DNA of 64,000 nt from contig JAHLWR010000019.1 of NCBI GenBank assembly GCA_019057815.1, positions 3,400-67,399 of the forward strand, in the 5' to 3' direction. The notes beneath the pieces are model-generated. The model was not told the origin of the DNA. It did no database searches and was given only the letters and a program-made list of their open reading frames with translations. The position numbers were made by a program, and so were the translations under genes. The stretch is from Candidatus Heimdallarchaeota archaeon (GTDB lineage Archaea; Asgardarchaeota; Heimdallarchaeia; Heimdallarchaeales; Heimdallarchaeaceae). Shown in pieces: positions 14,251 to 55,477 of this stretch (position 1 is the stretch's first letter; every line of letters begins with the position of its first letter).

Positions 14251-15123
14251 TTAGTTTCTTTTAGAGGTTGTTATTATATCTAAATAATATCGTGAAAAAA
14301 GTACTTTTAGTCCTTTAGGTAAATAGGGATCAAATGGTTTTTTTGTGGATAATAGTTCACCATTCCATTTGAAAGTGTTAGGTTTGTAAAAAAAACTTTG
14401 TTTAGTCCATTCGACATATCCATTTCTGTAAACAAAACCTTGTTTATACGGATTATAAGGACAAAGATCATTATCAGCAAGAGCAATATGCTCTAAAGCT
14501 GGACATTTAGCTAAAGGGTATAAATCTATAGTTTTTAGTTTGTTACGTTGGATGTCAATTTCGGATAAACTTGAGCATCCTTCCAGAGGTTTTAAGTCTA
14601 TGGCTCGAAGTTTATTGTTATCAAGTCTGACATACCTGAAAGAGGTACTATCAGCAATAGAAGGTAAGGTAATTTTAGTTAGTTGGTTTTCTTCAAAAAA
14701 AATTCCCAGTAAGTTTGGGCTGTTGCTTAAAGGAGTACAATCTACACAAGTCAGTTGATTCCAATTGAGAGAGATAATTTCTAGTGTAGGGTGATTTTCA
14801 AAAGGGCTTAAATTTATGTTTGTTAATTTATTTCTTGAAAGATCGATTTTTTTTAGTTTTGGGCATTTAGCTAAAGGAGCTAGACTTATACTTGTAATTT
14901 TATTACCTGAGAGGTCAATCTCTTCCAAATTAGGACAGTTGGCTAAAGGTCGAAGATTGATACTTTTCAAGTGATTATAAGAGAGATTCAAAGTCATTAA
15001 TTTTTTACTCTCCTTAAAACCACTAAAATCGACTCTATCCAGTTGTTTGTCATTATAATCTACATGGTAAGGATTATATCCATACTCAAATCTTTCAACT
15101 CTTTTACCTTTTATTTTTGACAA
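14251..15123 (-). CDS. Leucine-rich repeat (LRR) protein
   Basis: It has about nine 22-24-aa repeats of the form LxxLxLSxNxLxxIxLxPLxxCPxL. No signal peptide is visible. Confidence 0.85.
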   Translation of the reverse strand: MSKIKGKRVERFEYGYNPYHVDYNDKQLDRVDFSGFKESKKLMTLNLSYNHLKSINLRPLANCPNLEEIDLSGNKITSISLAPLAKCPKLKKIDLSRNKLTNINLSPFENHPTLEIISLNWNQLTCVDCTPLSNSPNLLGIFFEENQLTKITLPSIADSTSFRYVRLDNNKLRAIDLKPLEGCSSLSEIDIQRNKLKTIDLYPLAKCPALEHIALADNDLCPYNPYKQGFVYRNGYVEWTKQSFFYKPNTFKWNGELLSTKKPFDPYLPKGLKVLFSRYYLDIITTSKRN

Positions 15124-15490: not shown

Positions 15491-15529
15491 TATAGATTAA
15501 GATTAAAGATACTCATAGAGTGTTGTATG

Positions 15530-18500
15530 TCAATAAGTTTTTTTGCCAAACATTCCTCCAGCACCCCAGAAATCTACATATTTCATGATACAATGAGCCC
15601 AGTTAGTAGTATCATCATCATAATCATAATCATCTATTTTATAAGGTCCTTTATCCTGTGCATCTTCATACTTGTGTGCTTGTTCATAAGGTTTATCGAA
15701 ATTTTGTGCAGCTATGTCAAATTGTCTGAAAAGTTCAGGGGGGCGTCCATCAAAACATAAAGCTTCAGGAACAAGATAACGTAAATTTTCTACTCTATTA
15801 AAAATTTTCAAACTACTAATTGTTGGGAGAGTGTTCAAGTTTATTTCTACCTTAAAAGTTCCTGCTGTTTCTGTTTCTTTAGGTTTAATTTCTATATATC
15901 GTAAGTATCTGATGCTCCTATCCTGCTTATATTCTAATTTTTTATCTTTAATAAATGAACAATAATCGTCTAATTTTTCTACCATACCGATAAGTGCAAT
16001 AGAATCGATAATCTCTCTGTCAGATAAACCTTTCAAAGATATAGCAGGCTTGTTATTATGCGGTTTTTCATGGTCGATATTTATATACATTAACTCTAAT
16101 GCTTTTCTAGCAGCGTTTAAAGATTTTCCCCTTACACCATCCAAATCATTAATAAGATTTATTAAAGAGCGGTCTGTATTTTTATATTCTTCAAGATTGG
16201 TTGTAGGCCACCTTATTTCCGAATTATCGACTATCTTTCCACCTAATTTAGTAATAAGAGATTTTAAAGTATCTACATTACACTCAAATTTGTTTAGATT
16301 TATTATAAAAGCTCTCTTTCCTCGGTCTCCTTTTTCTACGAAGAAAATTTTAATACCCGCACCACTTTCTATTATTGTCACCATCTTGTTTTTTAGTAAA
16401 GGTTTGAGATAGGCATTATTGTTAAAATGGTCGAGAACGCGTTTATATAGTATATCTCTAGCGGTTTTCCCATCTTTGGGTGTAATGTCCTTTTTTATGT
16501 TATTAACAAAATCAACATTGTTTTTTTTGCTTATCGAATCTCTGAATTTTTGATAAAAGGAGCTGTACATTAAGTATTTAGTATAAGTTTTTGACGCATG
16601 TTCGTGTATAAGATTGACTCTATTAGCTCTGAACCTTGACGCATAAGGTCGATATTTTTGTAACATATCTTTTAAAGAAACACTAGGGTCTTTAATATCT
16701 TTATGTATATAGCGTGTATAAATATCGGTTATCAAAGAGCTTTGGAAGTAATCTATACCGTCAGCAGCGTTTGTACGATAACGCCAAGGATCAGTCTCTT
16801 TACCTAACAGACCTTCTTTTTTAAGTCTTAAATATGCACCATCGCCACCCATAACAACCTTCCTAGCATTAGTATTTTCTTTGAAGGCATCAGTTAAGAA
16901 ATCCATATGTTTATCATAAAGACTAATAGCATCGTCAAGGTCTAATATAGATGAATCCATAACATTGCAGTGTTTGTAACCAAGATAATAAGGATTGAAA
17001 ATTGTTTCCTCCACTCCTATTTCGGTATCAATGTCAAATTTGAGTGTGGTTTTAGTATAACAGTCGATTTTAGGGGCATTATTAAGATCCTTATAGTACT
17101 CTATTGTATCCGATAGTCTTGCAATCACAGCATCAGATTTACATCTAGGATCAATACCCATGTTTTTTATGAGGAGATTGTAAATAGATTCTATCGTTTT
17201 GCTCTTAGTACCAACATCAGTTTCGCTACTTGTTATATCTTTTTTCAGTTCTTCCATCTTTTTTATAGCTAAACTAATATCCACCCATTCATAAGAGACA
17301 GAAATTTTAGTTATTCCATCCACTGTTTTAGTATCTGTTTTCAAGTAAGGAACATTGTTGGTTGTTAAAAGGGAATAAAGAAAAACTCTCTGATATCTAT
17401 AGGATAAGTCATTAGGGTGTTTATCCGTTTTGTAATCACAACCCATAATCCCGCGTTTGAAGAAAAGTTTAATCATACCATCTATTTCATCTCCCTTCAT
17501 ATCTCTAAGCGTCAAATAAGCCCCTTTTATAGAGTCTATTTTAACGTGATCGTAACTGAGAGGTGAGATAAGAATAGTTTTAGAAGGAGAAGGATCAACA
17601 CCTTCAGGAGCAGGGAAGTTCCTACCATCCAGATAAACCATTTCGAATAAATGAGGTTTAGTGGGGTCATTTACTGTCTCTGAGGTATATTTTATTATAG
17701 ATGTTGATAAACCGTCAGAGTCTGTTTCAATGTCTATGCCTGTACCCAAGCAGTTTTTACCTGTGTTAATCCCCTCTACCTCATCCTTATTTATGAAAAC
17801 CTCTAACAAAGGTCTGGTGTATAACTTGTAATCATCATGAATTCTTTTAATATCCTCAAAGTCGACAATATAGTTACTTCTTACACCATCTTTATTGACC
17901 ACAAAACAAATAGATCTAATAGGTTTATTACCAATCTTAGGTTGAGGTACATTTACCATAAAAGCAGCTTCTATATATGTATTTTCCCCCTCAAGTTCTC
18001 CTTTAAACAGTGAGTTTTTATATGTTAGAAATGTCTTGAGTGTGTCAGTGTTAACTGAAACATGATAAACTTCATCTATATCGATTAAAGTAGTACCATC
18101 TCCATCTTTGTAACCCATATTGTGAAGTTGTCCTCTTCCTGATGCATCGATAACTTCTGCTGAAAAAACATCTTTAAGGAATACGAGGTTAACAGTTAAT
18201 CCAGAGATAAGCATAATCTCGAGTTGTAGCTTTAAAGCTAGCCTTTTCGCTGTTTCGAAGTCAGTTTTTAGGCCATTACTTTTCTCGTCTATAGTTCTAG
18301 TAAAAGTATTTAACAAACGCATAAGATTAAGTTCATTAAATTCTCGTTTATAACCAGTTCCTTTTTCATATCGGATGAACTGTTCAATTTGGTCTTTAGT
18401 CATAATATCTATACTTAGAAGTTTACCCTCACTATCTACAAAATAATTAGGGATGAATTTCCTTTTTATAAGCGTAGCGAGGGTTGACATATCCCGACCA

Positions 18501-21500
18501 AGGCTAGACTGTACGTTTGCTGATGATACAACATTCATACCTTCCCAAAGCCTATTATTCTTGAATTCCCAAGCCCCATGTTTTGTTACCATGTCAAAAC
18601 CTTGGATATTAAGAATCAATTGACGGTAGTTAGTGTCATCAATTGATCTAGGGCCTTTAGGTGTTATATAGTCTATATTCATATCTATAGGCCCCCAATC
18701 TTTATCTTTGAAAGTTATACCTTTATCTGCATCATATTCTATTTGGCTCACATCGAATTTGAATATACCATTAGAAGTAGTTATAACACCAACATCATCG
18801 ACAGAATTTCTATCAGGTCCAAAAACAACAGGTAAAATAACTCCACCAGCACCCATCAACGTAAGCTGTTCTTGTAATTCTTCCCAAATTATAGCAGCTT
18901 TCTTTTTAGCACCATTACCATCGGTGGGTTTGGGATCATCTTCAGTATGTGTATTTAAACGTTTTTTAAGTTCATCGTTGGCCCATTTCATAACAAGATA
19001 AATGTCAAATTTTGTTGCACATTCAACAAGTTCACCAACAGTCTCTTTAGGAACAGCTCTAAAACGTTTTAGAGCATCTTTGCTTACAAGTCTATCATCC
19101 ATTAAATCTTGGAAAGTTTTAAGATGTTGAATAAAAGCAGGATATTTAGTGACTGGATTACCATTCTCATCTATAGTGATTATACCTTCGGACTCTATTA
19201 TTTTCTTAGCAACAATATCAAGTTCTTTTAGAACATTCTCACCGAGAATGTTCTTAGGACTAATATTCTTATCAAGAGCCATTAAAGCGAGTATTAGAGA
19301 TGTTTGTAAGGTATTCACTTGTGAAGAGGTTCTACCTGGAACAGCATAATTGAAGAAACCATTTTTAAAACTGTCAATAGCTTTCATTTTAGCATCTATA
19401 GAGGTAACAGTAGATCCCGTGTAACGGGTATGCATTCTATCGATATGATCATTACTAATAAATGAAAAACCATATGTTAATCTAGCAATATTAAGATTGG
19501 TATCAACACCTGTTTTTCCTGTAACGGTAGAATCAGGGGGGATAGTGTCTGTGTCTGTAAGAGAGTTTTTAACCATAACCTCACTAGATGTTACTTCATT
19601 CATCTGCGAAAAGAAGGTTGACGGAGTGAGTATCTTAATGAAATTATCTAAACGCCCGTCTTTTTCTAGAGTAACGATTTTAGATAAACTTGTAGCGAAA
19701 ACCTCGAAAAGAGCAAAAATTGAACCTAATCGTTGTTTTTTAATTAACATCTCAAGAGATAGAATACTTGCAAGAAAGTCTGGTAGACGAGCAAAAGCTC
19801 TATTAGATTTGATAAGAGCTTTTCCGAAAGATTTCATAAACAACTTCATTGAACCTTGGAAAGCACCCCAAGGAAGGAAAACAGTATATTCAAGATAACT
19901 CCAAGCTTGACGAAGAGACGTGTGTATATTAATTATACTCTTTTGTTTAGTAGCAAATTCAATCATTGATAGTTGGTGACCCAAAACATCATCGACTAGC
20001 TTTGCATTCCTTGAGGAGGCTTTTATGCTATTGCGAAGAAGGCTTACACGAGTGAAAATATCTACAATGTCCATAGGTATTTGGATACGTGACAATGCAC
20101 GGAAGAAACTGTTTTGAACAATGATTGAATCTCGAACATCTTCATAAAGAGCTATGACTGGGAAAATGTTGCCTATCATTTCAATAGTGGTGAGAAATTC
20201 CAGTTCAGTGATACCAAATTGGATGTAAATTTGGTCTATAGAAAGTTTATAATGTTTATCGAGACTAATAAGCCACTTATAGGAATCTCCATCAGCTGTA
20301 CTTGTACCATCCCAAACAGCTATAACAAGGTAGTGATCGTCAAAACCAAGAGGTTGGATATTAGACGCCATCATTTCCTTAGTGTAAACACCTATGCTAT
20401 AAGGACCATATTTGAGGAACTTACTCTTAAACCAGAGGAAGATGTTAGAGTCTCTTTCACACATGTTATAAGCTTCAGGTTGGTAATTAGGAGAAGTAAC
20501 CCAATCACGCATGTTAGCCAGATCGGAATCGGTAGAATTAACAACAGCATCAGCGTATGCACTATCAGCAAAAGGCAATTTAGAATTTACATTGCTTATG
20601 GTTTTTGTGGAAAGGTGGTTAAGATAAGCGTCCCAAAGATAATCAAATTCCAAAATACTATGAGTACGGGTACATTTGTCTTTATCTAATACAGTATAAG
20701 ATTCACTTGCCTCACCAGTATAGTATGAAAGGGGTATGCCTGCTCCTTCACTGTTACCTAAAATAAGAGCCCAAAAGAACATAAAAGCGCTGTGGAATTT
20801 AACATAAGCATAATCAGTACGTTGTTGAAGCATTTCTCCTTTATCACCACCAGTAGCACCGAGACTAAAACCTGTCATCATCCTCCAGAAGAATTTGATA
20901 ACATTCCAAGCGATACGCAAAGCTTTACTGACAAAACTCCAGATTTTATACCAAGTGCTATGAGTAGGTGAGTCCTTGAAAGGATCATAAGAACCTTGAA
21001 TAAGGTCAAAAATACCTTCCATCCAGTCGGTAAACCGGTCTTCCATACCCTTGAGATTGAAAACATCACGTAGAACACGGACATCGATATAATTTAATCC
21101 TGAAACATCTACATCTAAAAGCTTAACTTGGTCTTGGGTATTATAGTCAGCTAAATTAAGACATTGCCACTTAATTTTACCATCCTCCATATAATAACTA
21201 GAGTAATCGACAGCGTCTCCGACATCTAATTGTTCTTCTTGATTGAAACATTGGATAATAAGCTTTTCAAACCATTCAGCGAAAGAAGATTTAGTAGGAT
21301 CAAAATAATCTGCGTCTTCATAAGTTCCAGAGAGAGATAAAGGAATCTCATAAGGTAGATCTATTTTAGATTGAATTGCTTGAATAGTTGCAGGGTTATC
21401 AAAAACGCCGACGTAAGTACCAGAATAATCAGGATTGTCAAGATTGTTAGAATAAATAGTGAAAGAGCCAGAGGAAGTTATATATGTTTTCTTGTATTTA

Positions 21501-38922: not shown

Positions 38923-41900
38923 AGAAATTATCGTAATATTCAGGATAAATTCTCAATTCTATTCCCCAGAATTCTTCAGGACGAGAAAGGGAAGAATAAT
39001 AAGTGCCATTACTGTTTATGTCATTAATTAGAATGGACCAAACAGCGTCAGGACTATATTCATAATCTGTAAATTGAGTTGGAACTGATTCATCATACGA
39101 ATGGTCATAAGCCATATTAATATAATTTGGACCATTCCAAGCATAATAATTTAGAGCTACAACATCTATTTTACAATTTGTTACTTCTGAGAACATAATT
39201 TTGAAAAATGGCATAGCTTTTGAGAAACTTAGAGGAATACGAACTTTAATACATCTTTCTGAATTAGGTAAATCATTTACATCATAATTATACGTGTCAG
39301 AATTTGTATAATCATCAACCTTAAAACCCTCATCATGATATCCTGGTCCATCCTCCAAATAGGGTCCATCTGTGTCTGAGATTTTAAGAAATCCATCCCT
39401 AGCTATTGCATTACTATCCCATTCACCGCATTCTGGATTATTCATATCAAAGCCTGAATAGGGGTTTTTACTCATCAAAAATTGGTTTAAAGGTTGTTTG
39501 ATAAGATAGTTGCCAAGATCATATTCACCATACTGCCCATTGCCACCGTAATAGAGAGGATTAAGTGTCCATAATTCTTGCTCTGTTTCACTCCATGATT
39601 CTCCTGTTGCATCAAATAATATATCATAAGCATCTCTTCCGTTATCAAATTCTAATTTTTCTACATTTAAAGTATATATAACTTCTTCATTTGATTTATC
39701 AAAATCATAAGCGTAAATAGCTGCAGTATGTCTTCCTACTTGATCTCCATACTCGTAGTTAGAGATACGATAAGGTGTATAAAGTAAATCGTAAAAGTGA
39801 TCCCAAGCGGGTTCAAATGTAGTGTCACACCCTGGTGGATAATCGATGTCCCACAAATCTACTCCATAACCTTCAAAATCCTCAAAGCCTTCAAGAGTAC
39901 CATCTCTCCTCCAAGTACCTGGAATCGGAGTAATACCATCATCCATATAAACTATAGCAGGAATACCATCACTAAGAATTAAGGATACATCATCATTGGG
40001 ATATTCACTGAAATCCTCAATTAATAATGCTTGTCTTGATTCAAAATGTTCGATGACTCCAACATCAAAAGTGTTTCCACCGTAGTCACCAGCTATTTTA
40101 GTAGGTAGAGTTGCTCCACTCCTACTATCAATTTGCAAATTCCAATATTCATCCATGAAATAGATGTAATAATCAATAACGTTTCCAATATCAATTTCGT
40201 TAGTATCAAAATCAAGTGTTACGTCAAAATGATAAACTGTTAACTCACCAAGAGGTTCAGTTGAAGTTAAAAATGTAGGATTAGCGTCATACGAACAGAA
40301 ATATTTCAAATCCCAAGAATAAGAGTTAGTCCAAGGTTCAAGCAACATACTATTGTAAATACCATAATAAACATACCCTTCAACATCACTTCTATCAATT
40401 AAATTGAAAGATATAGAAGCTGTAAAAGTGGGAGGAGAGAGTATTTCGACATCTACTTCCTCACTAATGAGGGGTTTATCACCATCAACAAGAGTGATTA
40501 ATAGCGATTGTTCGAGAGGATATGATTTTTCATTTACTTCATCATATACATCTACAATTACCAGTTTAAATGTCATATCCTTTTCTGGTGACCAGTAATT
40601 ATCCGAACTTGGTCTTGTAATAACAAAAGTGTAATTATAGGTATTTCCTTCATGCCAATATCTATCCCAATCGATCCTTCCAGGATAATCTTTATCTTCA
40701 ATTGTTCCTACTAAGGATATCGATTGAATCATAGAATGATCTCTAACTGTTAACCTAATTTCTATGTCTTGATTATATCTAGCATGAATGTTATCGGGTT
40801 CATAATTTAAAACTGTAAAGGAATTTGTATCATATTCTGGTGGTGTAATATCTTGAATTATTATTGTTCTAACACTTGAAGTTATTTTATTTCCTTCTCC
40901 ATCTTCTATAATTGCGTACCAATAAAGATATCCCGCAACATAGAGGTCATAGCCATAAATTGTTAGAGAATAGTTATTATTAACTGTAGGTTCGAGTAAA
41001 AGAACGTTTTCTTCTCCTTCCCACATAGCGCTTTGAGACGTATCCAAAGGATTAGTCCAACAAATCGATACGCTTTTTATACCTGAATGTTCATCAGATA
41101 CTAAATCTACTTGTAAGTCTACTTGTGTATCAATATTTATAGTAGTGGCTGTTTCATTAACAATAAAGGTAGGCAAAACTGTTTCAGAAACAAATACAGA
41201 ATGAAGGTTTGATTGTTTAATATTATTGAATGTGTCACTTGCTGAGACATAATATTCTATTGTCATATTATAGTTGAAAGAAGTTAAAGAGAAATTATCG
41301 GGATATAAATGGTAATAGAATTCACTAGTAGTGATATTTATCATAGAAATAGGAGTTTCAGAAAATGGTTTGTCGGGATCAAAAATTTCATCATCATCAA
41401 AATATCTATAATAAAGTAGAGGGATGTTGATTTCACTATTATCATTGACTAAACATCCAACGGGAATATATTCATCAGTAAAATCTATTCCGTAAACATC
41501 ATTTACAGATAAAGTTGGTGGAAGACCATCAACAACAGTTAAGATAAGATTACCATACTCTGATACTTTATTGGTATAAACTGTTTGACGATAATCTGTA
41601 AGCGAGAGATAACAGTCGATTGTAGTATCTTGTCCAATAGGTAGATAATTTCCGTGATAAACAGCATAATCGTTGTCGGTAGAATAACCTGTTTTTTGCA
41701 ATCTGATTTTATCTATAATTAATGTGTCAGAATCAAACAGACCACTATAACAAGTGAATTCCAGCCATATTTTTTTAGTGTTTTGAATATTAGAATTTGT
41801 AATATTAAGGTCATGGATGTTTATAGTATTAAAGGAATTTTTTTGAAGTAACTCATCTCCTGTCCAAGCATAATCTCCTCCTATACTATCTTTTATTCCT

Positions 41901-43477
41901 GTAAATAAAATAGTATTTTGAGTAACAGCTTTCCACGTGAAAGCAAAATTATTATACAGTTCAAAATTAACATAATCTTTTAGATCAATACCAATGTAAG
42001 CAATATTAGTATTATCAAAAGTTAGTTCAATGTAACTATCTGTTCCTGTATTATTCCATTTTACCCAATTGATATAACTTTCTTCTAGATACAATCCATC
42101 AAAAGTGCTATCATATAGAAGTTCATTATCATATTCCATATTTTCACAGAAACTTATACCATCATCACCATATTCACCAATATAATTCAAATAATCAGTA
42201 TCATCTCTTAATAATGATACTCCATGAGTACCATAGTTGTCTTCAAACCAAGCTGTTACATGATAGGTACGAATATTATCGTAAACATAAGCTTCAATAT
42301 TAGCTGTGTCTTCTTTGTTATATTTTAGTTCTGTTTCTTCATTCGTAAAGAGAAGGTGATTAGAGACTATGGATGAAGGAATTTCATCAAAAACAGAGAA
42401 TAAATATTTTTTAACTAAAGTTGTATCTGTTTGTCCATCACCATCTGAATCATAGATAATGTTCAGCTGTACTTCTAGTGTTCCCCTTTGATGAGTAGGA
42501 GCCATATATCCTTCAAATAAATATTTATTATTTCTCTCCCAAATAGTACCAGTACGACATTGTATTGAGTTAATATAACAAGGGGCATAAACACTCATTT
42601 CTAATATTGATTCTTTATAAAATATTTCCGCGTATATTGTTACACCATCTTCTGTTGTAGGAACAGAGGGACTCAAGTAAACATTATTGACAAAAGGTTC
42701 ATTACCTATAACTTTTATTTCTTCAACTCTCGTATAACCTGTCTGATCGTGTTCGTCTGTAGCATTAACCCAATAATAGATAATATCATCAATACTCGCA
42801 TCTAGAGATTCAGGAGAAGGAATCTCAAAAATACAATTAATCATATCTTGTTCTTCAAAAAATGTTGGAGATTTAGATGCTGTGGCTATATCACCGAAGT
42901 TAATCCTATAACTAAGGTGGATGTCGACTTCACCACCATTGATATAGTTAATATCGTCTGCATCATAAATAGAGTAGTTAAATGAGATAGATGTTATCTG
43001 ATCATATGTAACAAAAGACGGATTTTCATCATTAGAGTCTATTCTTGGTTCTCCATCTTCAGCTACACGATAATAATATCTCAACGAAGTAGTGGAAGCG
43101 TTATATTCTCCAGCATCATATAATTCTACAACATAACTTACAACCGTTCCAACTTCTTTTTTTGGTATCACTCCCCAATAAACTGCTCCTTGCGACCAAA
43201 AAGCTGTAATATATTTCATTGGAACAACAGTTGTTATACCGCTTACGTCATAGAGTAAACTGACTGAACTAATTCCATCTGTGCTGTTTGCGTCAACGAA
43301 CACAGTAACGTTGTCGAACTGGTTTGGATGCGCATGTGAACGCCAAACATCTATAACATTTGGACCATAAACTGTATCTGCTGAAACATTTATAGCTGTT
43401 GAAATTATTGGGGCTATAAAAAGCCATAAAATTACTGAAAAAACTAGTTTTTGATTGATTGTATTTTTTCTTTTCAT
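38822..43477 (-). CDS. Giant secreted protein (1551 aa) with a signal peptide and beta-sandwich and jelly-roll-like modules but no C-terminal anchor
   Basis: The ATG at 43475-43477 is preceded by AGGAG 9 nt upstream. The signal is LVFSVILWLFIAPIISTAINVSA. Modules end in IIDKIRLQK and IDYLKLYQI. Confidence 0.85.
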   Translation of the reverse strand: MKRKNTINQKLVFSVILWLFIAPIISTAINVSADTVYGPNVIDVWRSHAHPNQFDNVTVFVDANSTDGISSVSLLYDVSGITTVVPMKYITAFWSQGAVYWGVIPKKEVGTVVSYVVELYDAGEYNASTTSLRYYYRVAEDGEPRIDSNDENPSFVTYDQITSISFNYSIYDADDINYINGGEVDIHLSYRINFGDIATASKSPTFFEEQDMINCIFEIPSPESLDASIDDIIYYWVNATDEHDQTGYTRVEEIKVIGNEPFVNNVYLSPSVPTTEDGVTIYAEIFYKESILEMSVYAPCYINSIQCRTGTIWERNNKYLFEGYMAPTHQRGTLEVQLNIIYDSDGDGQTDTTLVKKYLFSVFDEIPSSIVSNHLLFTNEETELKYNKEDTANIEAYVYDNIRTYHVTAWFEDNYGTHGVSLLRDDTDYLNYIGEYGDDGISFCENMEYDNELLYDSTFDGLYLEESYINWVKWNNTGTDSYIELTFDNTNIAYIGIDLKDYVNFELYNNFAFTWKAVTQNTILFTGIKDSIGGDYAWTGDELLQKNSFNTINIHDLNITNSNIQNTKKIWLEFTCYSGLFDSDTLIIDKIRLQKTGYSTDNDYAVYHGNYLPIGQDTTIDCYLSLTDYRQTVYTNKVSEYGNLILTVVDGLPPTLSVNDVYGIDFTDEYIPVGCLVNDNSEINIPLLYYRYFDDDEIFDPDKPFSETPISMINITTSEFYYHLYPDNFSLTSFNYNMTIEYYVSASDTFNNIKQSNLHSVFVSETVLPTFIVNETATTINIDTQVDLQVDLVSDEHSGIKSVSICWTNPLDTSQSAMWEGEENVLLLEPTVNNNYSLTIYGYDLYVAGYLYWYAIIEDGEGNKITSSVRTIIIQDITPPEYDTNSFTVLNYEPDNIHARYNQDIEIRLTVRDHSMIQSISLVGTIEDKDYPGRIDWDRYWHEGNTYNYTFVITRPSSDNYWSPEKDMTFKLVIVDVYDEVNEKSYPLEQSLLITLVDGDKPLISEEVDVEILSPPTFTASISFNLIDRSDVEGYVYYGIYNSMLLEPWTNSYSWDLKYFCSYDANPTFLTSTEPLGELTVYHFDVTLDFDTNEIDIGNVIDYYIYFMDEYWNLQIDSRSGATLPTKIAGDYGGNTFDVGVIEHFESRQALLIEDFSEYPNDDVSLILSDGIPAIVYMDDGITPIPGTWRRDGTLEGFEDFEGYGVDLWDIDYPPGCDTTFEPAWDHFYDLLYTPYRISNYEYGDQVGRHTAAIYAYDFDKSNEEVIYTLNVEKLEFDNGRDAYDILFDATGESWSETEQELWTLNPLYYGGNGQYGEYDLGNYLIKQPLNQFLMSKNPYSGFDMNNPECGEWDSNAIARDGFLKISDTDGPYLEDGPGYHDEGFKVDDYTNSDTYNYDVNDLPNSERCIKVRIPLSFSKAMPFFKIMFSEVTNCKIDVVALNYYAWNGPNYINMAYDHSYDESVPTQFTDYEYSPDAVWSILINDINSNGTYYSSLSRPEEFWGIELRIYPEYYDNFCATIDYLKLYQIRYDFSGNDLSECSSESYISRA

Positions 43478-43490
43478 TTTCTTTTTCTCC

Positions 43491-46205
43491 TTATTTTTTC
43501 TTTCTTATTCTTATAACCATACTAACTGTGAAAATGACAAGTATCGCTGATGCTACACTTATTCCTATAATCATTCCTTGATTCCCTCCTCCGTTATCTG
43601 TTGGCTGAGTGCTATTTGTTGTATCAGTAGTTGTAGTCGAAATTGTTTCAGTAGTTGTTGTCGTAGTTTCATGTTGAAGGTTGAACATTCTTTCTAAGGT
43701 TGTCGTTCGATTGAATTCATCTGTTACTTCAACAGATATTTGGATAGACTCTTTTTCTTCGTAGTCTGCTGGATCAAGCATAAATTCGTAGATATATTCT
43801 ACATTATTGGGTTCTGTTTCAAAGTAAGTTTGTTCATCAACTTCTAAAACAAATTTCCTTATGTTGTTTCCATCTTCGCAAGTGAAAAAGATTGTTGTTT
43901 GTTCCGAGAATGTCTCATCATTAGGTTCTGAACAGTTTATTATTGGTGGATCAACATCGTTTTTCCAAGTGTAAACTATGTATTCACATTCATACCATGG
44001 TTCTGTAGTAAAGTTGAATATTAGTGTGTGTTCTCCATCCTCTATTTCAGTGATATAATACTCTCCTGGTTTAGATTTATATTTCTCAATACTTTGTCCA
44101 TCCATAGTTATAGAGAGGTAACCATTACGGAAATCCACGTCTATATTCAGGTTAGGACTTACTCTTGTAGGTTCATAGATTAAAAGATCTCTGATTACAA
44201 AGATGGGTTCAAGTGTTGTATATACTGACATTGTAAGGTCAACATGAGTATCGTCTTCTAAGTATCGAACAATGATAAAGACATCCTTCCCATTTCCCAC
44301 CATACCTGTGAGTCCTACTGCTCCCCAGTTCCCCCCATTTATTGTTGTTTCTTCATCTTCTAAATAACTTACACTATAACAAGGATCTTCAAAGAATGCC
44401 CATACATGTATAGAATTAGTAGCTGTCCAATTAAGAGTATAATGAAATTCTTCATAAGTTTTAAATTTGTAGACTTTGGTAAGTTGCTCATTTAAACTTA
44501 TATCACAAGCAAAATCTGTTCGTTCGTCGATAAATGGTCGGAAACTTATCTCTTCGGGTTCAGAATAGTAAAAGTCTCCATAGCCTTGTGCGCTGTCAGG
44601 ATTATGATATGTTCGTTCTGGAATACCATACCAATTAATATCTGGAAGGTATTCGTAATCTACAAATTCAACGGTATTCATTATTATTTGATTTTTTATC
44701 CTTACAACGTTATACCAATCCCATTCCCAATCATAGTTGTTAGTAAATGATAAAGCTACTCCTGATATTAACGCTGCTGAGAAACTTGTCCCTACACCAG
44801 AAGTCAAACTATCATTTAAACTGCTATTAGCACAAGTTATCTGGGGGTTAGCTATAATTCCTTCATCAGTGTTGATATAATATGATCCTCCAGGTGCTAA
44901 AAGTTCGGGTTTTATCCATACACTATATCTACATGAGTAGGTTGTTAGTTGGTGATAAGCGTTATACGCTCCTACTGTTATAGCTTTTCGACTAAGTCCA
45001 GGAGATGCTATTTGTATGTTTGGTCCATTGTTTCCTGCTGCTGCTATTACACATAAACCATTTTCGCATAATTCATTTACTGCATCAGTTACTTCTGAAA
45101 CATAAACATCCCATGCAAAAGACAAATTAACTGTTGTAACATTATATTCTTCTTTTATACCTAAAAGATAGTCACAAGCGTCTAAGAAGGTCGATGTTGT
45201 CCCTATACCTTCATCGTCCAGAACTTTCAATATGACCATATTAGCTAGTGGTACTATTCCATGATAAGGTGAATAACTGTCACTTGTCACTGTGCTGTTA
45301 ATCGTTAAAGGTTCATCAGAGAGGATTTTAGTCAATGAAACGTTGAACATACCGAAAAAGCTTATATTGTGAGGTGAAGTGTAAGTTATATTCTGTTCCT
45401 CTCCACTGAAAACTAAATCTGTAGCAAGGACATGTTTGGTTATACTCCCATTTCTATATAATTCTATGAAACTTACAGTTGCTAAAGCGTTAGTCATATT
45501 ATAAATTGTAAATGTTGCTGATTCGTCTTCTAGCAGTTTTAGACCATCAAATTGTTTGAATAAATCATCATTATCGTTTCTTTCTATCCACTTGTATTCT
45601 AACCCTTCAGTTTGTTTTCCTGCTATTATCGAAGCCATAGCTGTTCCATGACCAGAATAATCGCAAGGTTCATCGTAAAGATCTCCATAAGTGTCGTAAT
45701 CTGCTCCTACAAAATCTTTCCAATCCAGTAATTGTTCTTGATCGAACATCAAGTGATTGATATTTATCCCACTATCCATTATACATACAGTGTGAGATCC
45801 TTTTTCAAACGAATTATCAGGTGAGATACCCATTAACTCTTGAGTACTGAGCATCTGAGCAGTCATCAACTGGTCTTTGTAGATTTTCAATCCTTTCAGA
45901 GTTAGCTCTTGTTCTGCTTTTTCGCTATCACTGACTCTATAGATTGTTAATCCCAGATTTCTCAAAACTTTTTGTCTTGTTAACCCTTCTATTTGTCCTT
46001 CTATTCCTTGAACGATTATTGTTTCTCTATCTTCTAGATTATATTCTTGGTTAGTGAACGGTGGTTGAACTGAATAATTCTTTTCACCTTCATTTTTCTC
46101 AACGCCAAAGGAATAGATCGATTCTACTTTACTGATAGAGGAACAACTTGAGAAAAGCAGTAGATTCACTAGTAATAATACATACAAACTGCTCTTTAAT
46201 CTCAA
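43491..46205 (-). CDS. Subtilisin-like serine protease (peptidase S8), membrane anchored
   Basis: The catalytic context is D in VCIMDSGI, H in SGHGTAMAS, N in AAAGNNGPN and S in GVGTSFSAA. The N-terminal signal ends in the lipobox-like LLFSSC. A Thr-rich stalk (HETTTTTTETISTTTTDTT) precedes the C-terminal TM IIGISVASAILVIFTVSMVI and RIRKKK. The TTG start overlaps the upstream TGA as TTGA. Confidence 0.9.
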   Translation of the reverse strand: MRLKSSLYVLLLVNLLLFSSCSSISKVESIYSFGVEKNEGEKNYSVQPPFTNQEYNLEDRETIIVQGIEGQIEGLTRQKVLRNLGLTIYRVSDSEKAEQELTLKGLKIYKDQLMTAQMLSTQELMGISPDNSFEKGSHTVCIMDSGININHLMFDQEQLLDWKDFVGADYDTYGDLYDEPCDYSGHGTAMASIIAGKQTEGLEYKWIERNDNDDLFKQFDGLKLLEDESATFTIYNMTNALATVSFIELYRNGSITKHVLATDLVFSGEEQNITYTSPHNISFFGMFNVSLTKILSDEPLTINSTVTSDSYSPYHGIVPLANMVILKVLDDEGIGTTSTFLDACDYLLGIKEEYNVTTVNLSFAWDVYVSEVTDAVNELCENGLCVIAAAGNNGPNIQIASPGLSRKAITVGAYNAYHQLTTYSCRYSVWIKPELLAPGGSYYINTDEGIIANPQITCANSSLNDSLTSGVGTSFSAALISGVALSFTNNYDWEWDWYNVVRIKNQIIMNTVEFVDYEYLPDINWYGIPERTYHNPDSAQGYGDFYYSEPEEISFRPFIDERTDFACDISLNEQLTKVYKFKTYEEFHYTLNWTATNSIHVWAFFEDPCYSVSYLEDEETTINGGNWGAVGLTGMVGNGKDVFIIVRYLEDDTHVDLTMSVYTTLEPIFVIRDLLIYEPTRVSPNLNIDVDFRNGYLSITMDGQSIEKYKSKPGEYYITEIEDGEHTLIFNFTTEPWYECEYIVYTWKNDVDPPIINCSEPNDETFSEQTTIFFTCEDGNNIRKFVLEVDEQTYFETEPNNVEYIYEFMLDPADYEEKESIQISVEVTDEFNRTTTLERMFNLQHETTTTTTETISTTTTDTTNSTQPTDNGGGNQGMIIGISVASAILVIFTVSMVIRIRKKK

Positions 46206-46753
46206 ATCGAATCACCATACCAATTAATTAACTCTGTAGCACAAGAATGTTGTCCACCTAAAAATGAACAAATGCTCAAGTGTTCTGTGTCCCCAACAAA
46301 TAGATTTAGGGAGAATGAAGGAAGGTTCATATTTTCTGATAACCTATTTATTACACCAAACCCTCCTTCCTTACACTCTTTTCCCTTTTCACGCATGTAG
46401 CAGGGGGAATAGTGGGGAGAGAAGAAATTGTAAAAATTAAAGAAACAGTCAATACCACATTCTTGCTCTTCCCAGAAATACACAGTTGACGTGAACTGTA
46501 CGAACTTAAAATTCTCAAAAAAGTTAAGTTGAAAATGTGTTCTTAAATAATTATAAAAGTTGCCATCAAACTGTTTTGAAACAATTTTGTTTTGAGTTTT
46601 CATTGTTGTCATACTTCTTTGTTTGTAGGAAGATAGTTTGACGGAACCTTCGTTATAATTACTAGTTGAATAAAAAGTTTCATATTTAAAGGTGGTAAAA
46701 TTTTTTTCTTCCAAAAAACCCTCAGTATTTGTGTAAAAACTCTCTAAAAACAT
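46202..46753 (-). CDS. Cys/Phe/Tyr-rich hypothetical protein (183 aa), no signal peptide
   Basis: The ORF sits 4 nt after the ATPase gene and overlaps the protease start by 4 nt. It contains CGIDC, SPC, ECKEGG and SICSFLGGQHSC. I recognised no family. Confidence 0.5.
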   Translation of the reverse strand: MFLESFYTNTEGFLEEKNFTTFKYETFYSTSNYNEGSVKLSSYKQRSMTTMKTQNKIVSKQFDGNFYNYLRTHFQLNFFENFKFVQFTSTVYFWEEQECGIDCFFNFYNFFSPHYSPCYMREKGKECKEGGFGVINRLSENMNLPSFSLNLFVGDTEHLSICSFLGGQHSCATELINWYGDSI

Positions 46754-46757
46754 CTTC

Positions 46758-47654
46758 TCACTCTCCTTTGGTGGAAATGTTAGCAGTTTCCAGATTTATT
46801 CTTCTTTGAGAACTTGAAATTATCTCATCTTGTTTCAATAGATCAATATTTTGTGTAACATTGTCGACCATACAAGAAAGTTGATTATACAAAGAATGCT
46901 TTCGGGGGAAGAAATACTCTCCATGGATGCAGTTCTCAATAATTTCATAAGAAAGGTTGAAGAATCCGAGAAAAATGGGATCTATTCCTGTTTCTCTCTC
47001 CAGTTCTTCTTTCCATTTGTGCAAGATTTTGAGACTCTTATCTTTAAGTTCGGGAGGTATTTGGTTGAAAATGAAGAAATTCAGAGATTGATAAAAGAGT
47101 TTCTTGTAGATGTCTTGAAGCATTTCTTTAGCTCCTTCAAAACTAAAGGTTGAAGGCCTCAAAACGAAGATTCGTGCATCAGCTATAGTTGCAGCGTGGA
47201 CAGACTCTATCCTGTAACCCGGAGCGCAATCTAGAACAACGTATTGATAACCCATTCGTTGGAGCGTTTTCATCATCTCGTGAAGGATGAAATATGAATG
47301 TTCATGGATACTTTTCAACAAAGAAAGTAATCCTTCACCGTAGTCTATTTTTTCGCTAGCAGTGATAATGGAAAGGTTAGTAACAGAAGTAGAAGAGATG
47401 TTGTTTTCAGAGAGGATACCATTACCTAAGAGAATGTCATTAATAGTGATTTTAATGTCTGTTCTAGAAATATTGAAAATGTGTTGTAAAGTAGGTTGAG
47501 CAACATCAAGATCGATAAGAACAGTTTTCTTCCCTCTCTTAGCTAACTCATGCGCTATATTACAAGAAAGAGTAGTCTTACCAGGGCCTCCTTTCTGACT
47601 ATGAAGCATAATCACATCTATTCTTTGTCGACAAGACATCTTTTGTAGAATCAA
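46758..47654 (-). CDS. MinD/ParA-type P-loop ATPase
   Basis: It has the deviant Walker A SQKGGPGKTT, then LIDLD (Walker A') and VVLDCAPG (Walker B-like). The track start at 47654 is a TTG, and an in-frame ATG lies at 47637-47639. Confidence 0.85.
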   Translation of the reverse strand: MILQKMSCRQRIDVIMLHSQKGGPGKTTLSCNIAHELAKRGKKTVLIDLDVAQPTLQHIFNISRTDIKITINDILLGNGILSENNISSTSVTNLSIITASEKIDYGEGLLSLLKSIHEHSYFILHEMMKTLQRMGYQYVVLDCAPGYRIESVHAATIADARIFVLRPSTFSFEGAKEMLQDIYKKLFYQSLNFFIFNQIPPELKDKSLKILHKWKEELERETGIDPIFLGFFNLSYEIIENCIHGEYFFPRKHSLYNQLSCMVDNVTQNIDLLKQDEIISSSQRRINLETANISTKGE

Positions 47655-47916: not shown

Positions 47917-48243
47917 ATGTCAAGGTATTTAATGGGTTTGGAGCAAAAGTCAGCTTTACAAGTATTAGAAACATTGCTAGAATTGGGAGGAAAGACGAAT
48001 GTCTCAACATTAATTAATTCCGTTATTGGTGGTCAGAAATCAGTCTATTCAGCTATTAACGTTTTAGAGGATTTAGAACTGATTAAAAGCGAGCAGAAGA
48101 TAATACGCGGAAGCAGGTATATATATTTAACTTCAATTGGTGAACAAATAGCATACAAAATAATCGAAATAACGACAATATTAGAATCTCAGAAATTTCA
48201 AAAAAGAGAAAAAAAAACTAAAATTTACAGTTATGATTGGTAA
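47917..48243 (+). CDS. Small winged-helix DNA-binding protein, divergent from the ATPase operon
   Basis: 108 aa. The pattern LQVLETLLELGGKTNVSTLINSVIGGQKSVYSAINVLEDLELIKSE fits HTH plus wing, followed by a basic tail. Confidence 0.55.
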   Translation: MSRYLMGLEQKSALQVLETLLELGGKTNVSTLINSVIGGQKSVYSAINVLEDLELIKSEQKIIRGSRYIYLTSIGEQIAYKIIEITTILESQKFQKREKKTKIYSYDW

Positions 48244-55476: not shown

Positions 55477-55477
55477 G

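What the first reader, a model, noticed from the sequence alone, without database searches (positions are those of the whole stretch)
15530..47654. A ~32-kb operon links a MinD/ParA ATPase, a Cys-rich protein and an anchored subtilase to three giant proteins
Six co-directional genes are joined by coupling signals visible in the sequence. There is a 4-nt gap at 46754-46757 and a TTGA start/stop overlap at 46202-46205. TAA-GGAG-N9-ATG sits at 43475-43493, and a TAATG overlap with GGAGGA sits at 31220-31240. The genes encode a cytoplasmic deviant-Walker-A ATPase, a cytoplasmic Cys-rich 183-aa protein, a subtilase with both a lipobox-like Cys and a C-terminal TM, and then about 9,350 aa of giant proteins. 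Those giants are built from beta-sandwich units bounded by DxxxP and jelly-roll-like units ending in [IV]Dx[IL][RK]L-type motifs. The 15.7-kb gene would rank among the largest archaeal ORFs. I cannot map this gene set onto known archaeal surface machinery such as S-layer, archaellum, type IV pili or archaeosortase substrates. The closest established analogy is the Staphylothermus tetrabrachion surface complex with its bound STABLE subtilase, which has no ATPase partner. My working hypothesis (inference) is an ATPase-positioned, protease-matured giant surface scaffold or adhesion apparatus. It could relate to cell-cell contact or protrusions in a syntrophic Asgard archaeon.
Basis: partly seen in the sequence, partly recalled or inferred. 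Interest (0 to 1): 0.9.

Follow-up and report, generated by a model that had tools for sequence, protein, structure and literature searches.

The report
Aloposon-like tandem giant-gene cassette, Heimdallarchaeia
This 32-kb gene cluster from an Asgard (Heimdall-group) archaeon closely resembles the 'aloposons' outlined in 2022: a ParA-like ATPase gene followed by two giant surface-protein genes, with a conserved front end and a very variable exported back end whose function is still unknown.

Summary
The ORFs and coupling signals are real, but there are five genes, not six. D and E are one ~4,083-aa gene split in this window by a net 5-nt frameshift; the ortholog elsewhere is an intact 4,060-aa ORF. 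The host is a Heimdallarchaeia archaeon.

The layout (ParA/MinD-like ATPase, small ORF B, S8 subtilase, tandem giants of 4,083 and 5,230 aa) matches the published outline of 'aloposons' (Wu et al. 2022, PMC8813620). A distant homolog of giant 2 is 98-100% identical to a giant-gene remnant in Ca. Heimdallarchaeum endolithica. There the intact pair is present or absent between near-identical strains, beside a duplicated secY 5' end.

New here:
- A and most of B are conserved, while the S8 and giants diverge extremely. The junction lies inside B's 3' end.
- The S8 is optional, and one relative lacks all of A, B and S8 within the 3.5 kb seen upstream.
- Giant 1 carries at least 12 probable Ig-like modules; giant 2 is non-repetitive with no known domain.
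- B is a recombination mosaic with non-conserved cysteines.

No tRNA, integrase or flanking repeats occur in the window. The 'obligate ATPase-positioned, protease-matured scaffold' reading is only partly supported. I class it as a new variant of a known, functionally uncharacterised kind.

The parts
48482..48697 (-). Small alpha-helical ORF (71 aa from the first ATG here; 108-109 aa in relatives), co-directional with the cassette. Candidate first gene of the conserved 'head'.
   Evidence: tblastn: 87-90% identical to the L002 and L005 108-aa proteins and 41% to the L007 109-aa protein. In L007 that protein lies directly upstream of, and co-directional with, the ATPase gene.
47917..48243 (+). 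Divergently transcribed 108-aa winged-helix-like protein, a candidate local regulator.
   Evidence: 95-98% identical in L005 and L010, more conserved than A. Weak Sta1/Lrs14 HTH hits, E 4.5e-4 to 7.7e-4, below the curated cutoffs.
46758..47654 (-). Gene A: ParA/MinD-superfamily deviant-Walker-A ATPase. The likely true start is the ATG at 47639.
   Evidence: Pfam AAA_31 2.8e-25, plus CbiA, ParA and MipZ. PDB best hits are ParA and MinD. Below every NCBIfam cutoff. phrog_164 ParA-like partition protein, 2.2e-32. dN/dS 0.16-0.22.
46202..46753 (-). Gene B: 183-aa F/Y/N/S-rich ORF with no known domain, always immediately after A. It is a recombination mosaic, and the junction between conserved head and variable cargo lies in its last ~100 nt (about 46202-46304).
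   Evidence: Only 9 homologs in 5.8 billion proteins. No Pfam, NCBIfam, PHROG or PADLOC hit. Only this frame is open in every ortholog. dN/dS 0.5-0.8 with flat codon-position rates. Two internal haplotypes cut across the flanking-gene relationships. Nucleotide homology to L006/L007 ends at window 46304. No RNA structure.
43491..46205 (-). Gene C: membrane-anchored extracellular S8 subtilase, with signal-like N-terminus, catalytic domain, Thr-rich linker and C-terminal TM plus RKKK.
   Evidence: Peptidase_S8 1.8e-33. Triad D144/H186/S474 and TM at 879-897. Best PDB match is Tk-SP 3afg. 91% identical in L010 but only 26% in L013. Absent from the L014 cassette.
38822..43477 (-). ORF D: N-terminal 1,551 aa of giant 1, with a signal/TM at residues 11-29. 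Contains three ~105-aa modules (D 715-1004, nt 40466-41335).
   Evidence: Colinear with residues 6-1531 of the intact L010 giant. Modules from the iterated HMM. dN/dS 0.27.
38793..38825 (-). Frameshift site that splits giant 1 into D and E in this assembly.
   Evidence: tblastn frame switch between L001-giant residues 1531 and 1543. DNA alignment shows a net 5-nt deficit, as 2+1+2 nt gaps, in a variable linker rather than a homopolymer.
31222..38922 (-). ORF E: C-terminal ~2,535 aa of giant 1. No signal peptide; C-terminal TM (E 2522-2540) plus a basic tail. Contains nine modules in three clusters (nt 35488-36510, 34129-34611, 32254-33393).
   Evidence: Fused D+E is 84% identical over 100% to P0012, 4,060 aa. 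Modules. TM. AF2 is low-confidence but almost all beta. Foldseek returns only Ig-type sandwiches, weakly.
15530..31237 (-). Gene F: giant 2, 5,230 aa from the ATG at 31222 that overlaps E's TAA. One N-terminal TM/signal-anchor, no C-terminal TM, non-repetitive, no known domain.
   Evidence: No Pfam, NCBIfam, PHROG or PDB hit. No internal repeats. Only 9 matches to its N-terminal ~1,000-aa profile in 1.84 billion representatives. Colinear with P0011 at 21-28% and L011 G2 at 32%. dN/dS 0.24.
14251..15123 (-). LRR protein (290 aa), co-directional and 406 nt downstream of giant 2. Possibly associated, membership uncertain.
   Evidence: LRR_8 1.2e-31. An LRR or LRR-like gene also follows giant 2 in L014 (307 aa, assigned LRR-like by eye only) and sits beside the giant remnants in L012 (415 aa). 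No sequence similarity between them at E 1e-3.

Best explanation
The locus is an aloposon-type tandem-giant-gene cassette of a Heimdallarchaeia archaeon. It is resident here in a chromosomal neighbourhood rich in surface-protein genes.

It has two parts. The conserved cytoplasmic 'head' is a small helical protein, a ParA/MinD-like ATPase and the small ORF B. The hypervariable exported 'cargo' is an optional membrane-anchored S8 subtilase, giant 1 and giant 2.

Shown: the genes are tightly packed with overlapping or SD-preceded starts. Giant 1 has an N-terminal signal and a C-terminal TM, and carries at least 12 modules of ~105 aa. Giant 2 has a single N-terminal anchor and is non-repetitive. 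All genes except B are under purifying selection. The head/cargo boundary sits in the 3' end of B. The cargo differs radically between cassettes that share the head. Several cassettes can occur in one genome. In Heimdallarchaeum the giant pair is gained or lost between near-identical strains at a site with a duplicated target.

Inferred: the genes are co-transcribed and translationally coupled. The giants are exported by Sec and displayed on the cell surface as a variable adhesion or contact layer, trimmed by the S8 protease when it is present. Cargo diversity arises by recombination at or near B. The ATPase serves either maintenance/partition of the element or spatial placement of the surface assembly; the data do not decide which.

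In this genome giant 1 is split by a frameshift. Both halves still show purifying selection, so the split is either very recent or an assembly error.
For: - Architecture and junctions.
- D+E is one gene.
- Published aloposon definition (tandem 3,000-6,000-aa giants; consecutive upstream genes including a MinD/ParA-like ATPase; several copies per genome): PMC8813620.
- Four consecutive upstream genes (small protein, ParA-like, B, S8) in the L006/L007 lineage.
- Giant sizes across the family run from 2,071 to 4,476 aa for giant 1 and 5,016 to 6,010 aa for giant 2.
- Link to Ca. H. endolithica: P0011, the homolog of F, shares a 90% cluster with UJG42416.1. L012 holds two giant-2 3' remnants, each next to secY 5' sequence. 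L009 is 99% nt-identical to that genome but carries the intact pair.
- All named relatives are Heimdallarchaeaceae or Heimdallarchaeota.
- Head versus cargo: A 65% and B 72% identical, but C 26% and giant 1 undetectable by BLAST between the window and L006/L013. Nucleotide homology ends at 46304.
- S8 optional, and a second cassette in one MAG.
- Topology. Modules. Soft Ig-like support.
- Purifying selection, dN/dS 0.16-0.27 against the close relatives L010 and L005 (up to 0.37 for C against L006).
Against: - No tRNA, integrase, transposase or flanking direct repeat was found in the 64-kb window. No tRNA was found in six related loci either, whereas published aloposons sit next to tRNA genes.
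- The upstream flank (NosD and CarboxypepD_reg genes) is syntenic in L002 and L005, so nothing shows recent mobility of this copy.
- I could not retrieve the published Otus/Ephialtes or their four upstream genes. Homology to them is therefore indirect: it rests on the H. endolithica remnant and on the paper's statement that such remnants are homologous to an aloposon giant.
- Whether published aloposons carry an S8 protease or a B-like ORF is unknown.
- Surface display, Ig-like fold and protease processing are predictions. Both AF2 models were low-confidence (pLDDT 36.8 and 49.9).
Confidence: 0.62

Rival explanations
1. One reading: a fixed chromosomal cell-biology apparatus in which the ParA/MinD ATPase positions, and the subtilase matures, a giant surface scaffold. 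All parts are functionally obligate and the locus is not a mobile or variable element.
For: - Tight coupling of all genes.
- Purifying selection on A, C and the giants.
- Stable flanks in three related genomes.
- ParA/MinD-type ATPases encoded in operons for envelope machines are known (BcsQ; weak matches).
- No mobility genes in the window.
Against: - The giant pair occurs with none of A, B or S8 in the 3.5 kb seen upstream in L011.
- The S8 is missing in L014.
- The cargo is replaced or diverged beyond recognition behind a conserved head.
- The pair is present or absent between 99%-identical Heimdallarchaeum strains.
- Giant 1 is frameshifted here.
- The same architecture was already described as a mobile element.
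Confidence: 0.2
2. A virus-derived or virus-linked element like HeimV2. The giants would be host-recognition or virion-associated proteins, the ParA-like ATPase a partition function of an episomal stage, and the locus an integrated and partly decayed provirus.
For: - Wu et al. describe HeimV2 as a virus/aloposon hybrid.
- A's best library hit is a phage ParA-like partition family (phrog_164, 2e-32).
- C matches phrog_3677 protease.
- An insertion scar and remnants exist in H. endolithica.
Against: - No capsid, terminase, portal or integrase gene was detected in or next to the cluster.
- No relatives of F or A in the IMG/VR contigs.
- Flanks are ordinary chromosomal and surface-protein genes with conserved synteny.
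- Signal-peptide and TM topology suits cell-surface display.
Confidence: 0.08
3. A decaying or non-functional locus or assembly artefact, in which the giant ORFs are chimeric or pseudogenised and have no current function.
For: The D/E frameshift. B evolves almost neutrally. Giant-gene remnants exist in H. endolithica.
Against: - Independent assemblies give colinear, uninterrupted orthologs.
- dN/dS is about 0.25 for D, E and F.
- A 15.7-kb open frame in 33% GC DNA cannot persist by chance.
- Other reading frames of B carry 7-21 stops.
Confidence: 0.05

Closest known systems
Aloposons of Candidatus Heimdallarchaeum endolithica and aukensis, with the giant proteins Otus and Ephialtes (Wu et al. 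2022, Nat Microbiol, PMC8813620)
   Same: - Same archaeal group.
- Tandem giant genes in the 3,000-6,000-aa range.
- A run of consecutive upstream genes that includes a MinD/ParA-like ATPase: four in the L006/L007 lineage, three plus a separated fourth here.
- More than one cassette per genome.
- The giant-2 3' end lies at the element boundary in the H. endolithica remnant site.
- A giant-2 family member is 98-100% identical to a remnant in the H. endolithica genome.
   Different: - No adjacent tRNA gene, integrase or repeat was found here or in six related loci.
- The intact Heimdallarchaeum-type pair I could see sits upstream of secY, not at a tRNA.
- An S8 subtilase and the B ORF are not mentioned in the publication.
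- Direct sequence comparison with Otus, Ephialtes and the published ATPase was not possible with these tools.
Cell-surface (cell-wall-associated) variable genomic islands of archaea, for example that of Haloquadratum walsbyi (PMC4535781, seen only in the listing)
   Same: A cluster of surface-protein genes, including giant ones, that varies strongly between related genomes. The neighbourhood here is full of NosD/beta-helix, LRR and CarboxypepD_reg surface proteins.
   Different: This is an analogy only; the paper was not read in detail and there is no sequence relationship. The conserved ATPase-B head joined to the variable cargo is specific to this system.
ParA/MinD-family ATPases encoded within envelope-machine operons (BcsQ of cellulose synthase; TadZ/CpaE of Tad pili, from my own knowledge)
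   Same: A deviant Walker A ATPase encoded at the head of an operon for exported components. Weak BcsQ-family similarity.
   Different: All family scores are below the curated cutoffs. No partner machinery (secretin, synthase, pilin) is present. The best library match is to phage ParA-like partition proteins.
Staphylothermus marinus tetrabrachion with the STABLE subtilase
   Same: A large archaeal surface protein genetically or physically associated with a subtilisin-family protease.
   Different: Tetrabrachion is a coiled-coil stalk. Here the low-confidence giant-1 predictions are almost all beta-strand, with Ig-like modules. There is no sequence similarity evidence, and the protease is dispensable in related cassettes.

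Membership tests
Aloposon (Wu et al. 2022) | Tandem genes encoding proteins of 3,000-6,000 aa (Otus and Ephialtes) | tested here: met
   Giant 1 is 4,083 aa once D and E are fused. Giant 2 is 5,230-5,235 aa, adjacent, with a TAATG stop/start overlap. Relatives carry pairs of 4,060 + at least 4,037 aa, 4,476 + 5,274 aa, 3,488 + at least 1,818 aa, and 3,224 + 6,010 aa.
Aloposon (Wu et al. 2022) | [quoted passage not shown] | tested here: met
   A is ParA/MinD-like. In the window, A-B-C are consecutive and a fourth conserved small gene (48482-48697) is separated from A by a divergent wHTH gene. In L007 that small gene is directly upstream of A, giving four consecutive genes. Whether these are the same four gene families as in the publication could not be checked.
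Aloposon (Wu et al. 2022) | Integration at a tRNA gene downstream of the giant genes | tested here: not met
   ARAGORN and Rfam find no tRNA anywhere in the window. No tRNA-like match at E<=1 in 11000-15700. None in L002, L009, L010, L011, L013 or L014. The Heimdallarchaeum-type pair in L009 abuts secY instead.
Aloposon (Wu et al. 2022) | Sequence homology of the giants to Otus/Ephialtes | tested here: inconclusive
   The support is indirect only. F is homologous to P0011 (E 5e-73 over the N-terminal 900 aa and colinear to residue ~3,800). P0011 is 98-100% identical to a remnant in the Ca. H. endolithica genome. The paper says such remnants are homologous to an aloposon giant. The intact published giants could not be retrieved.
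Aloposon (Wu et al. 2022) | Evidence of mobility (different insertion sites, presence or absence between genomes) | tested here: inconclusive
   For the family: an intact pair versus a remnant between 99%-identical sequences, with a duplicated secY 5' segment, and two cassettes in one MAG. For this window's copy: no flanking repeats, no integrase, and the upstream flank is syntenic in L002 and L005.
MinD (cell-division site selection) or chromosomal/plasmid ParA partition ATPase, sensu stricto | Score above the curated family cutoffs; partner gene (MinE/MinC or ParB) adjacent; C-terminal membrane-targeting helix for MinD | tested here: not met
   Every NCBIfam score is far below cutoff: ParA_partition 62.8 vs 180, minD_arch 57.3 vs 201.75, minD_bact 60.5 vs 212.9. 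The adjacent gene B has no ParB, MinE or any other domain hit. The C-terminus of A is polar and not amphipathic, judged from the sequence.
Peptidase S8 (subtilase) | Asp-His-Ser triad in subtilase order, with a family HMM score above cutoff | tested here: met
   PF00082 at 116.5 bits against a cutoff of 21.8. D144 (DSG), H186 (HGT) and S474 (GTS) are present.
Known anti-phage defence systems (PADLOC) | Significant full-length matches of two or more components to one system | tested here: not met
   Only partial P-loop (PDC-M28B, 8e-8 over 80 residues) and subtilase-core (IetS, 5e-5) matches. B and the small ORFs have none.
Ig-like (cadherin/HYR/Big-type) repeat adhesins | Tandem ~100-aa beta-sandwich modules recognisable by a family HMM or a confident structure | tested here: inconclusive
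   Twelve mutually homologous ~105-aa modules with a D..GN...D...P signature. No Pfam family recurs. The AF2 module model has pLDDT 49.9 with 7-8 strands. Foldseek top hits are all Ig-type sandwiches, but with E >= 8e-3 and TM 0.4-0.5.

The most novel reading that the evidence does not exclude
The cassette may be a head-and-cargo diversification system. A conserved module (small helical protein, ParA-like ATPase, B) would act as a fixed expression and maintenance platform. Recombination at a hotspot in or just after B would swap in radically different exported cargos (with or without a subtilase, plus two giant surface proteins), including exchange of domains between giant 1 and giant 2. That would give Heimdallarchaeia a mobile, population-level system of surface variation, comparable in logic to polymorphic-toxin or antigenic-variation cassettes, built around the largest proteins these cells make.
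Probability: 0.25. Interest if true: 0.75.

Novelty: new variant of a known kind. Interest (0 to 1): 0.55.

Why it matters
Aloposons are so far the only non-viral integrated elements reported from Heimdallarchaeia (per PMC11529989), the archaeal group considered closest to eukaryotes. Published knowledge of them amounts to three sentences of gene-map description.

This window and its relatives add concrete, testable anatomy:
- which parts are constant (ATPase plus B) and which vary (protease and giants);
- where the junction lies;
- that the protease is dispensable;
- that giant 1 is a membrane-anchored array of probable Ig-like modules, while giant 2 is a non-repetitive 5,000-6,000-aa protein with no recognisable domain and fewer than ten relatives in 1.84 billion representative proteins;
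- that the pair is gained or lost between near-identical strains at secY.

If the giants are surface-displayed, they are prime candidates for the cell-cell contact or virus-interaction surfaces of these syntrophic archaea. If the head/cargo swapping is real, it is a new way of generating surface diversity in archaea. The finding is not the discovery of an unknown system, however, and its function remains unproven.

Tried and rejected
- **B as a structured RNA.** Rejected: the alifold covariation term is unfavourable (+2.81), only 3 of 72 pairs are compensatory, the MFE z-score is -1.0, and only sub-threshold Rfam chance hits appear.
- **B as a conserved Cys-rich metal-binding protein.** Rejected: the cysteines are not conserved.
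- **'Jelly-roll' repeat family.** The HMM finds only the seeds and their orthologs, so it is not demonstrated.
- **Internal repeats in giant 2.** None by BLAST or by ortholog-profile windows.
- **Catalytic motifs in giant 2** (HExxH, GxSxG, DxD, CxxC, Walker A). None is conserved in P0011.
- **Domain assignment of the giants.** Pfam, NCBIfam, PHROGs and PDB sequence profiles all gave nothing significant.
- **AF2 of a 1,196-aa stretch of E with 3 sequences.** pLDDT 36.8, unusable.
- **AF2 of one module with a 26-sequence internal-repeat alignment.** pLDDT 49.9, giving secondary structure and a weak Foldseek trend only.
- **Mobile-element hallmarks in the window** (tRNA, integrase, flanking repeats). 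None found.
- **Defence-system membership.** None.
- **Collection scans that found nothing.** Viral contigs with F's N-terminus and with A; genome contigs with C; metagenome contigs twice. As a result the region upstream of giant 1 in the Heimdallarchaeum-type contig L009 was never seen.
- **Wu et al. supplements and text.** They contain no gene-level aloposon annotation.
- **Programmed frameshifting at the D/E junction.** Considered, but I did not test for slippery sites. The indel lies in a variable linker and looks like an ordinary mutation or assembly difference.

Full report
**1. What is in the sequence**

| ORF | Coordinates | Length (aa) |
|---|---|---|
| A | 46758-47654 | 298 |
| B | 46202-46753 | 183 |
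| C | 43491-46205 | 904 |
| D | 38822-43477 | 1,551 |
| E | 31222-38922 | 2,566 |
| F | 15530-31237 | 5,235 |

The quoted junctions are all present: TGA-GAAG-ATG between A and B, the TTGA overlap between B and C, TAA-GGAG-N9-ATG between C and D, and GGAGGA...TAATG between E and F. The last one makes the true F start the ATG at 31222.

A is a ParA/MinD-superfamily ATPase with the KGGxGKT deviant Walker A. It scores far below every curated NCBIfam subfamily cutoff. Its best library match is the phage ParA-like partition family phrog_164 at 2e-32.

C is an S8 subtilase with an intact D144/H186/S474 triad, an N-terminal hydrophobic segment, a Thr-rich linker and a C-terminal TM.

B, D, E and F have no hit in Pfam, NCBIfam, PHROGs or PADLOC. 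D, E and F also have no significant hit to PDB sequences.

**2. D and E are one gene**

D and E overlap by 100 nt in different frames, and E has no signal peptide. The ortholog in an independent assembly (L001/L010, Logan SRR30965927) is a single 4,060-aa ORF.

- It aligns to the window in frame 2 up to residue 1531 and in frame 3 from residue 1543.
- The fused D+E is 84% identical to it over 100% of its length.
- At DNA level the window has a net 5-nt deficit, as 2+1+2 nt gaps, in a variable linker and not in a homopolymer.

So there are two giants, not three: giant 1 (4,083 aa, interrupted here) and giant 2 (5,230 aa). D and E each still show dN/dS of about 0.25 against L010. The break is therefore either very recent or an assembly error; I cannot tell which.

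**3. Host and neighbourhood**

The window encodes Ras- and Arf-family small GTPases. The named relatives of B and of giant 2 are 'Candidatus Heimdallarchaeota', 'Heimdallarchaeaceae' and Ca. Heimdallarchaeum endolithica.

The flanks carry NosD/beta-helix, LRR and CarboxypepD_reg proteins, AFOR and ordinary metabolic genes. No tRNA, Rfam family, integrase or transposase was found, and no direct repeats bracket the cluster.

**4. Synteny**

B is a rare marker, with 9 homologs in 5.8 billion proteins. Wherever the contig extends upstream of a homolog, an A-type ATPase gene precedes it.

- L010 shows the whole array: A, B, C, giant 1 (4,060 aa) and giant 2 (at least 4,037 aa, cut by the contig end).
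- L013 shows B, S8, then giants of 3,224 and 6,010 aa.
- Upstream of A, a small helical protein is conserved. In L007 it is directly upstream and co-directional, giving four consecutive genes before the giants. In the window's lineage a 95-98% conserved divergent wHTH gene, with weak Lrs14/Sta1 similarity, lies between them.

The linkage is not universal:

- In L011 the giants are clearly orthologous and colinear (30-40% identical), but the 3.5 kb seen upstream holds four unrelated genes: a multi-TM protein, a coiled-coil protein, a TM plus zinc-ribbon protein and a 133-aa protein. There is no ATPase, B or S8 there.
- In L014, which comes from the same MAG as L002, a second cassette has a B homolog followed directly by giants of 2,071 and 5,016 aa, with no S8.

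**5. It matches a described system**

Wu et al. 2022 (PMC8813620) define 'aloposons' in Ca. Heimdallarchaeum by three features:

- tandem genes for 3,000-6,000-aa proteins (Otus and Ephialtes);
- integration at tRNA sites downstream of the giants;
- four consecutive upstream genes including a bacterial MinD/ParA-like ATPase.

They also mention a genomic region holding truncated fragments of a giant gene. The only later mention of aloposons adds nothing functional.

I could link the window's giant 2 to that genome.

- The exhaustive profile search with the giant-2 N-terminus found only 9 proteins in 1.84 billion representatives.
- The best of these, P0011 (5,274 aa, colinear with F at 21-28% identity), shares a 90% cluster with UJG42416.1 of Ca. 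H. endolithica.
- In that genome (L012) the ribosomal-protein/secY operon contains two remnants of a giant-2 3' end. One covers P0011 residues 3978-5265 at 39-65% identity and the other covers 5091-5274 at 98-100%. Each is followed by secY 5' sequence, and one of those is an 85%-identical duplicate.
- The metagenomic contig L009 is 99% nt-identical to this region, yet it carries the intact 4,476-aa and 5,274-aa pair immediately upstream of secY.

So the pair is gained or lost between near-identical strains at a site with target duplication, which is how a mobile element behaves. The site is not a tRNA, however. I could not retrieve the published intact aloposons, so homology of the window's genes to Otus/Ephialtes and to the published ATPase remains indirect.

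**6. Conserved head, variable cargo**

| Comparison | A | B | C (S8) | Giant 1 | Giant 2 (F) |
|---|---|---|---|---|---|
| Window vs L010 (aa identity) | 83% | 59% | 91% | 84-86% | 86% |
| Window vs L006/L013 lineage | 65% | 72% | 26% | no BLAST hit; weak module-level HMM hits only | not compared |

Gene order and membrane topology are the same in both lineages. Nucleotide homology to L006/L007 spans window 46304-47623, which is A plus the first ~450 nt of B. It stops about 100 nt before B's stop codon.

L014's giant 2 carries a ~260-aa segment 41% identical to part of the window's giant 1 (E 1595-1855). This indicates that domains move between the two giants.

**7. What B is and is not**

B's frame is the only open one in every ortholog: 1 stop, against 7-21 in the other frames. 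However:

- Its substitutions are flat across codon positions.
- Its dN/dS is 0.5-0.8, against 0.16-0.37 for its neighbours.
- Its cysteines are not conserved, and its C-terminal tails differ between homologs.

Its divergence is also discordant with its neighbours. Against L006, dS is 0.29 for B while A and C are saturated. The DNA alignment explains this: B's middle segment exists as two haplotypes (window/L006/L005 versus L010/L002/L003) that cut across the relationships of the flanking genes. B is therefore a recombination mosaic.

An RNA-structure explanation was tested and rejected. B's function is unknown. It may be a small, rapidly evolving adaptor protein, or an ORF kept open mainly to couple translation across the head/cargo junction.

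**8. The giants**

Topology:

- Giant 1 has an N-terminal signal-like segment and a C-terminal TM followed by a basic tail. The same ending is seen in L009 and L013.
- Giant 2 has one N-terminal hydrophobic anchor and no other TM.

BLAST finds no internal repeats in either giant.

| Protein | Modules of ~105 aa |
|---|---|
| D+E (clusters of 2-4) | 12 |
| P0012 | 11 |
| P0013 | 8 |
| F and P0011 (giant 2) | 0 |
| Shuffled controls | 0 |

The modules share a D..GN...D...P signature. No Pfam family recurs among them.

AF2 was low-confidence both for a 1,196-aa stretch (pLDDT 36.8) and for one module with a 26-sequence alignment (pLDDT 49.9). Both predictions are almost all beta-strand, with 7-8 strands per module. 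Foldseek returns only Ig-type sandwiches, but weakly, with E of at least 8e-3 and TM 0.4-0.5. An Ig-like fold is therefore likely but not shown.

Giant 2 has no cryptic repeats and no conserved catalytic-type motif. It is a non-repetitive, domain-less 5,000-6,000-aa protein family confined, as far as the databases show, to Heimdallarchaeaceae.

**9. Most likely mechanism**

Shown: the gene order, the tight junctions, the predicted topologies, purifying selection on A, C and both giants, the head/cargo mosaic, the optional S8, multiple cassettes per genome, and presence/absence polymorphism in Heimdallarchaeum.

Inferred:
- The genes form one transcript from upstream of A to the T-rich tract after F.
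- The S8 and both giants are exported by Sec and displayed on the membrane.
- The S8 processes the giants when it is present.
- The function is a variable adhesion, contact or shielding layer.
- Cargo diversification occurs by recombination near B.
- The ATPase acts either in element maintenance (partition) or in placing the assembly.

I put about 0.62 on 'aloposon-type variable surface cassette'. Smaller weights go to a virus-derived element and to a decaying locus.

**10. Novelty and score**

One listed feature of the published class, tRNA-adjacent integration, was tested and not met. The S8 and B components and the head/cargo structure are not described in the publication. I therefore file it as a new variant of a known, functionally uncharacterised kind, with interest 0.55.

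The most novel reading still open is a cargo-swapping surface-variation system built around giant proteins. I give it about 0.25 probability, and it would merit about 0.75 interest if true.

Noticed in passing
L012 (Ca. H. endolithica CP084167.1, 1889004-1909645): 3873-7707, 7772-8288, 9905-10521: The ribosomal-protein/secY operon of the published complete genome carries two nested remnants of a giant-2 3' end, a duplicated secY 5' segment (an 84-aa Plug_translocon ORF, 85% nt identity) and an LRR gene. A 99%-identical metagenomic contig (L009) has the intact 4,476 + 5,274-aa pair at this site. This looks like repeated insertion and deletion at secY.
   Followed up: partly
window 53200-59400: An array of paralogous NosD/right-handed beta-helix genes (435, 274, 774, 180 and 243 aa) with 66-69-nt periodic repeats. 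It also contains duplicated 78-300-nt blocks, including near-identical intergenic or promoter segments (55398-55475 vs 57839-57916, 94% identical).
   Followed up: no
window 165-755 and 6629-7189: Ras-family and Arf-family small GTPase genes (eukaryotic signature proteins), which independently mark the contig as Asgard.
   Followed up: no
window 47917-48243 (+): A 108-aa winged-helix-like protein transcribed divergently from the ATPase gene. It is 95-98% identical in L005 and L010, more conserved than any cassette gene. It has weak Lrs14/Sta1 (archaeal biofilm/motility regulator) and Csa3 similarity, all below cutoffs.
   Followed up: partly
L014 6529-21579 (giant 2, residues 800-1056) vs window E residues 1595-1855 (nt about 33358-34140): A ~260-aa segment is shared at 41% identity between giant 2 of one cassette and giant 1 of another, while the rest of the proteins are at or below 25%. 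This suggests domain exchange between the two giants.
   Followed up: no
window 14251-15123 (-); L014 21658-22581; L012 8365-9612: An LRR or LRR-like protein gene lies next to the 3' end of giant 2 or its remnants in three otherwise different loci. The three proteins are not similar to each other at E 1e-3, and the L014 one was judged LRR-like by eye only.
   Followed up: partly
window 46202-46753 and alignment A7, columns ~105-260: B's middle segment exists as two sharply different haplotypes, distributed across genomes independently of the similarity of the flanking A and C genes. L002, L003 and L004 carry a 108-aa truncated form.
   Followed up: partly
window 2675-2800 and 43612-43668: 9-nt periodic GTAGTAGTT-type repeats encode Thr-rich linkers on the minus strand. 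They occur in the 240-aa ORF at 2221-2943 and in the stalk of the S8 protease, and probably mark O-glycosylated surface-protein linkers.
   Followed up: no
window 12283-13365 (-): A 360-aa ORF downstream of the LRR gene has no hit in Pfam, NCBIfam, PHROGs or PADLOC.
   Followed up: no
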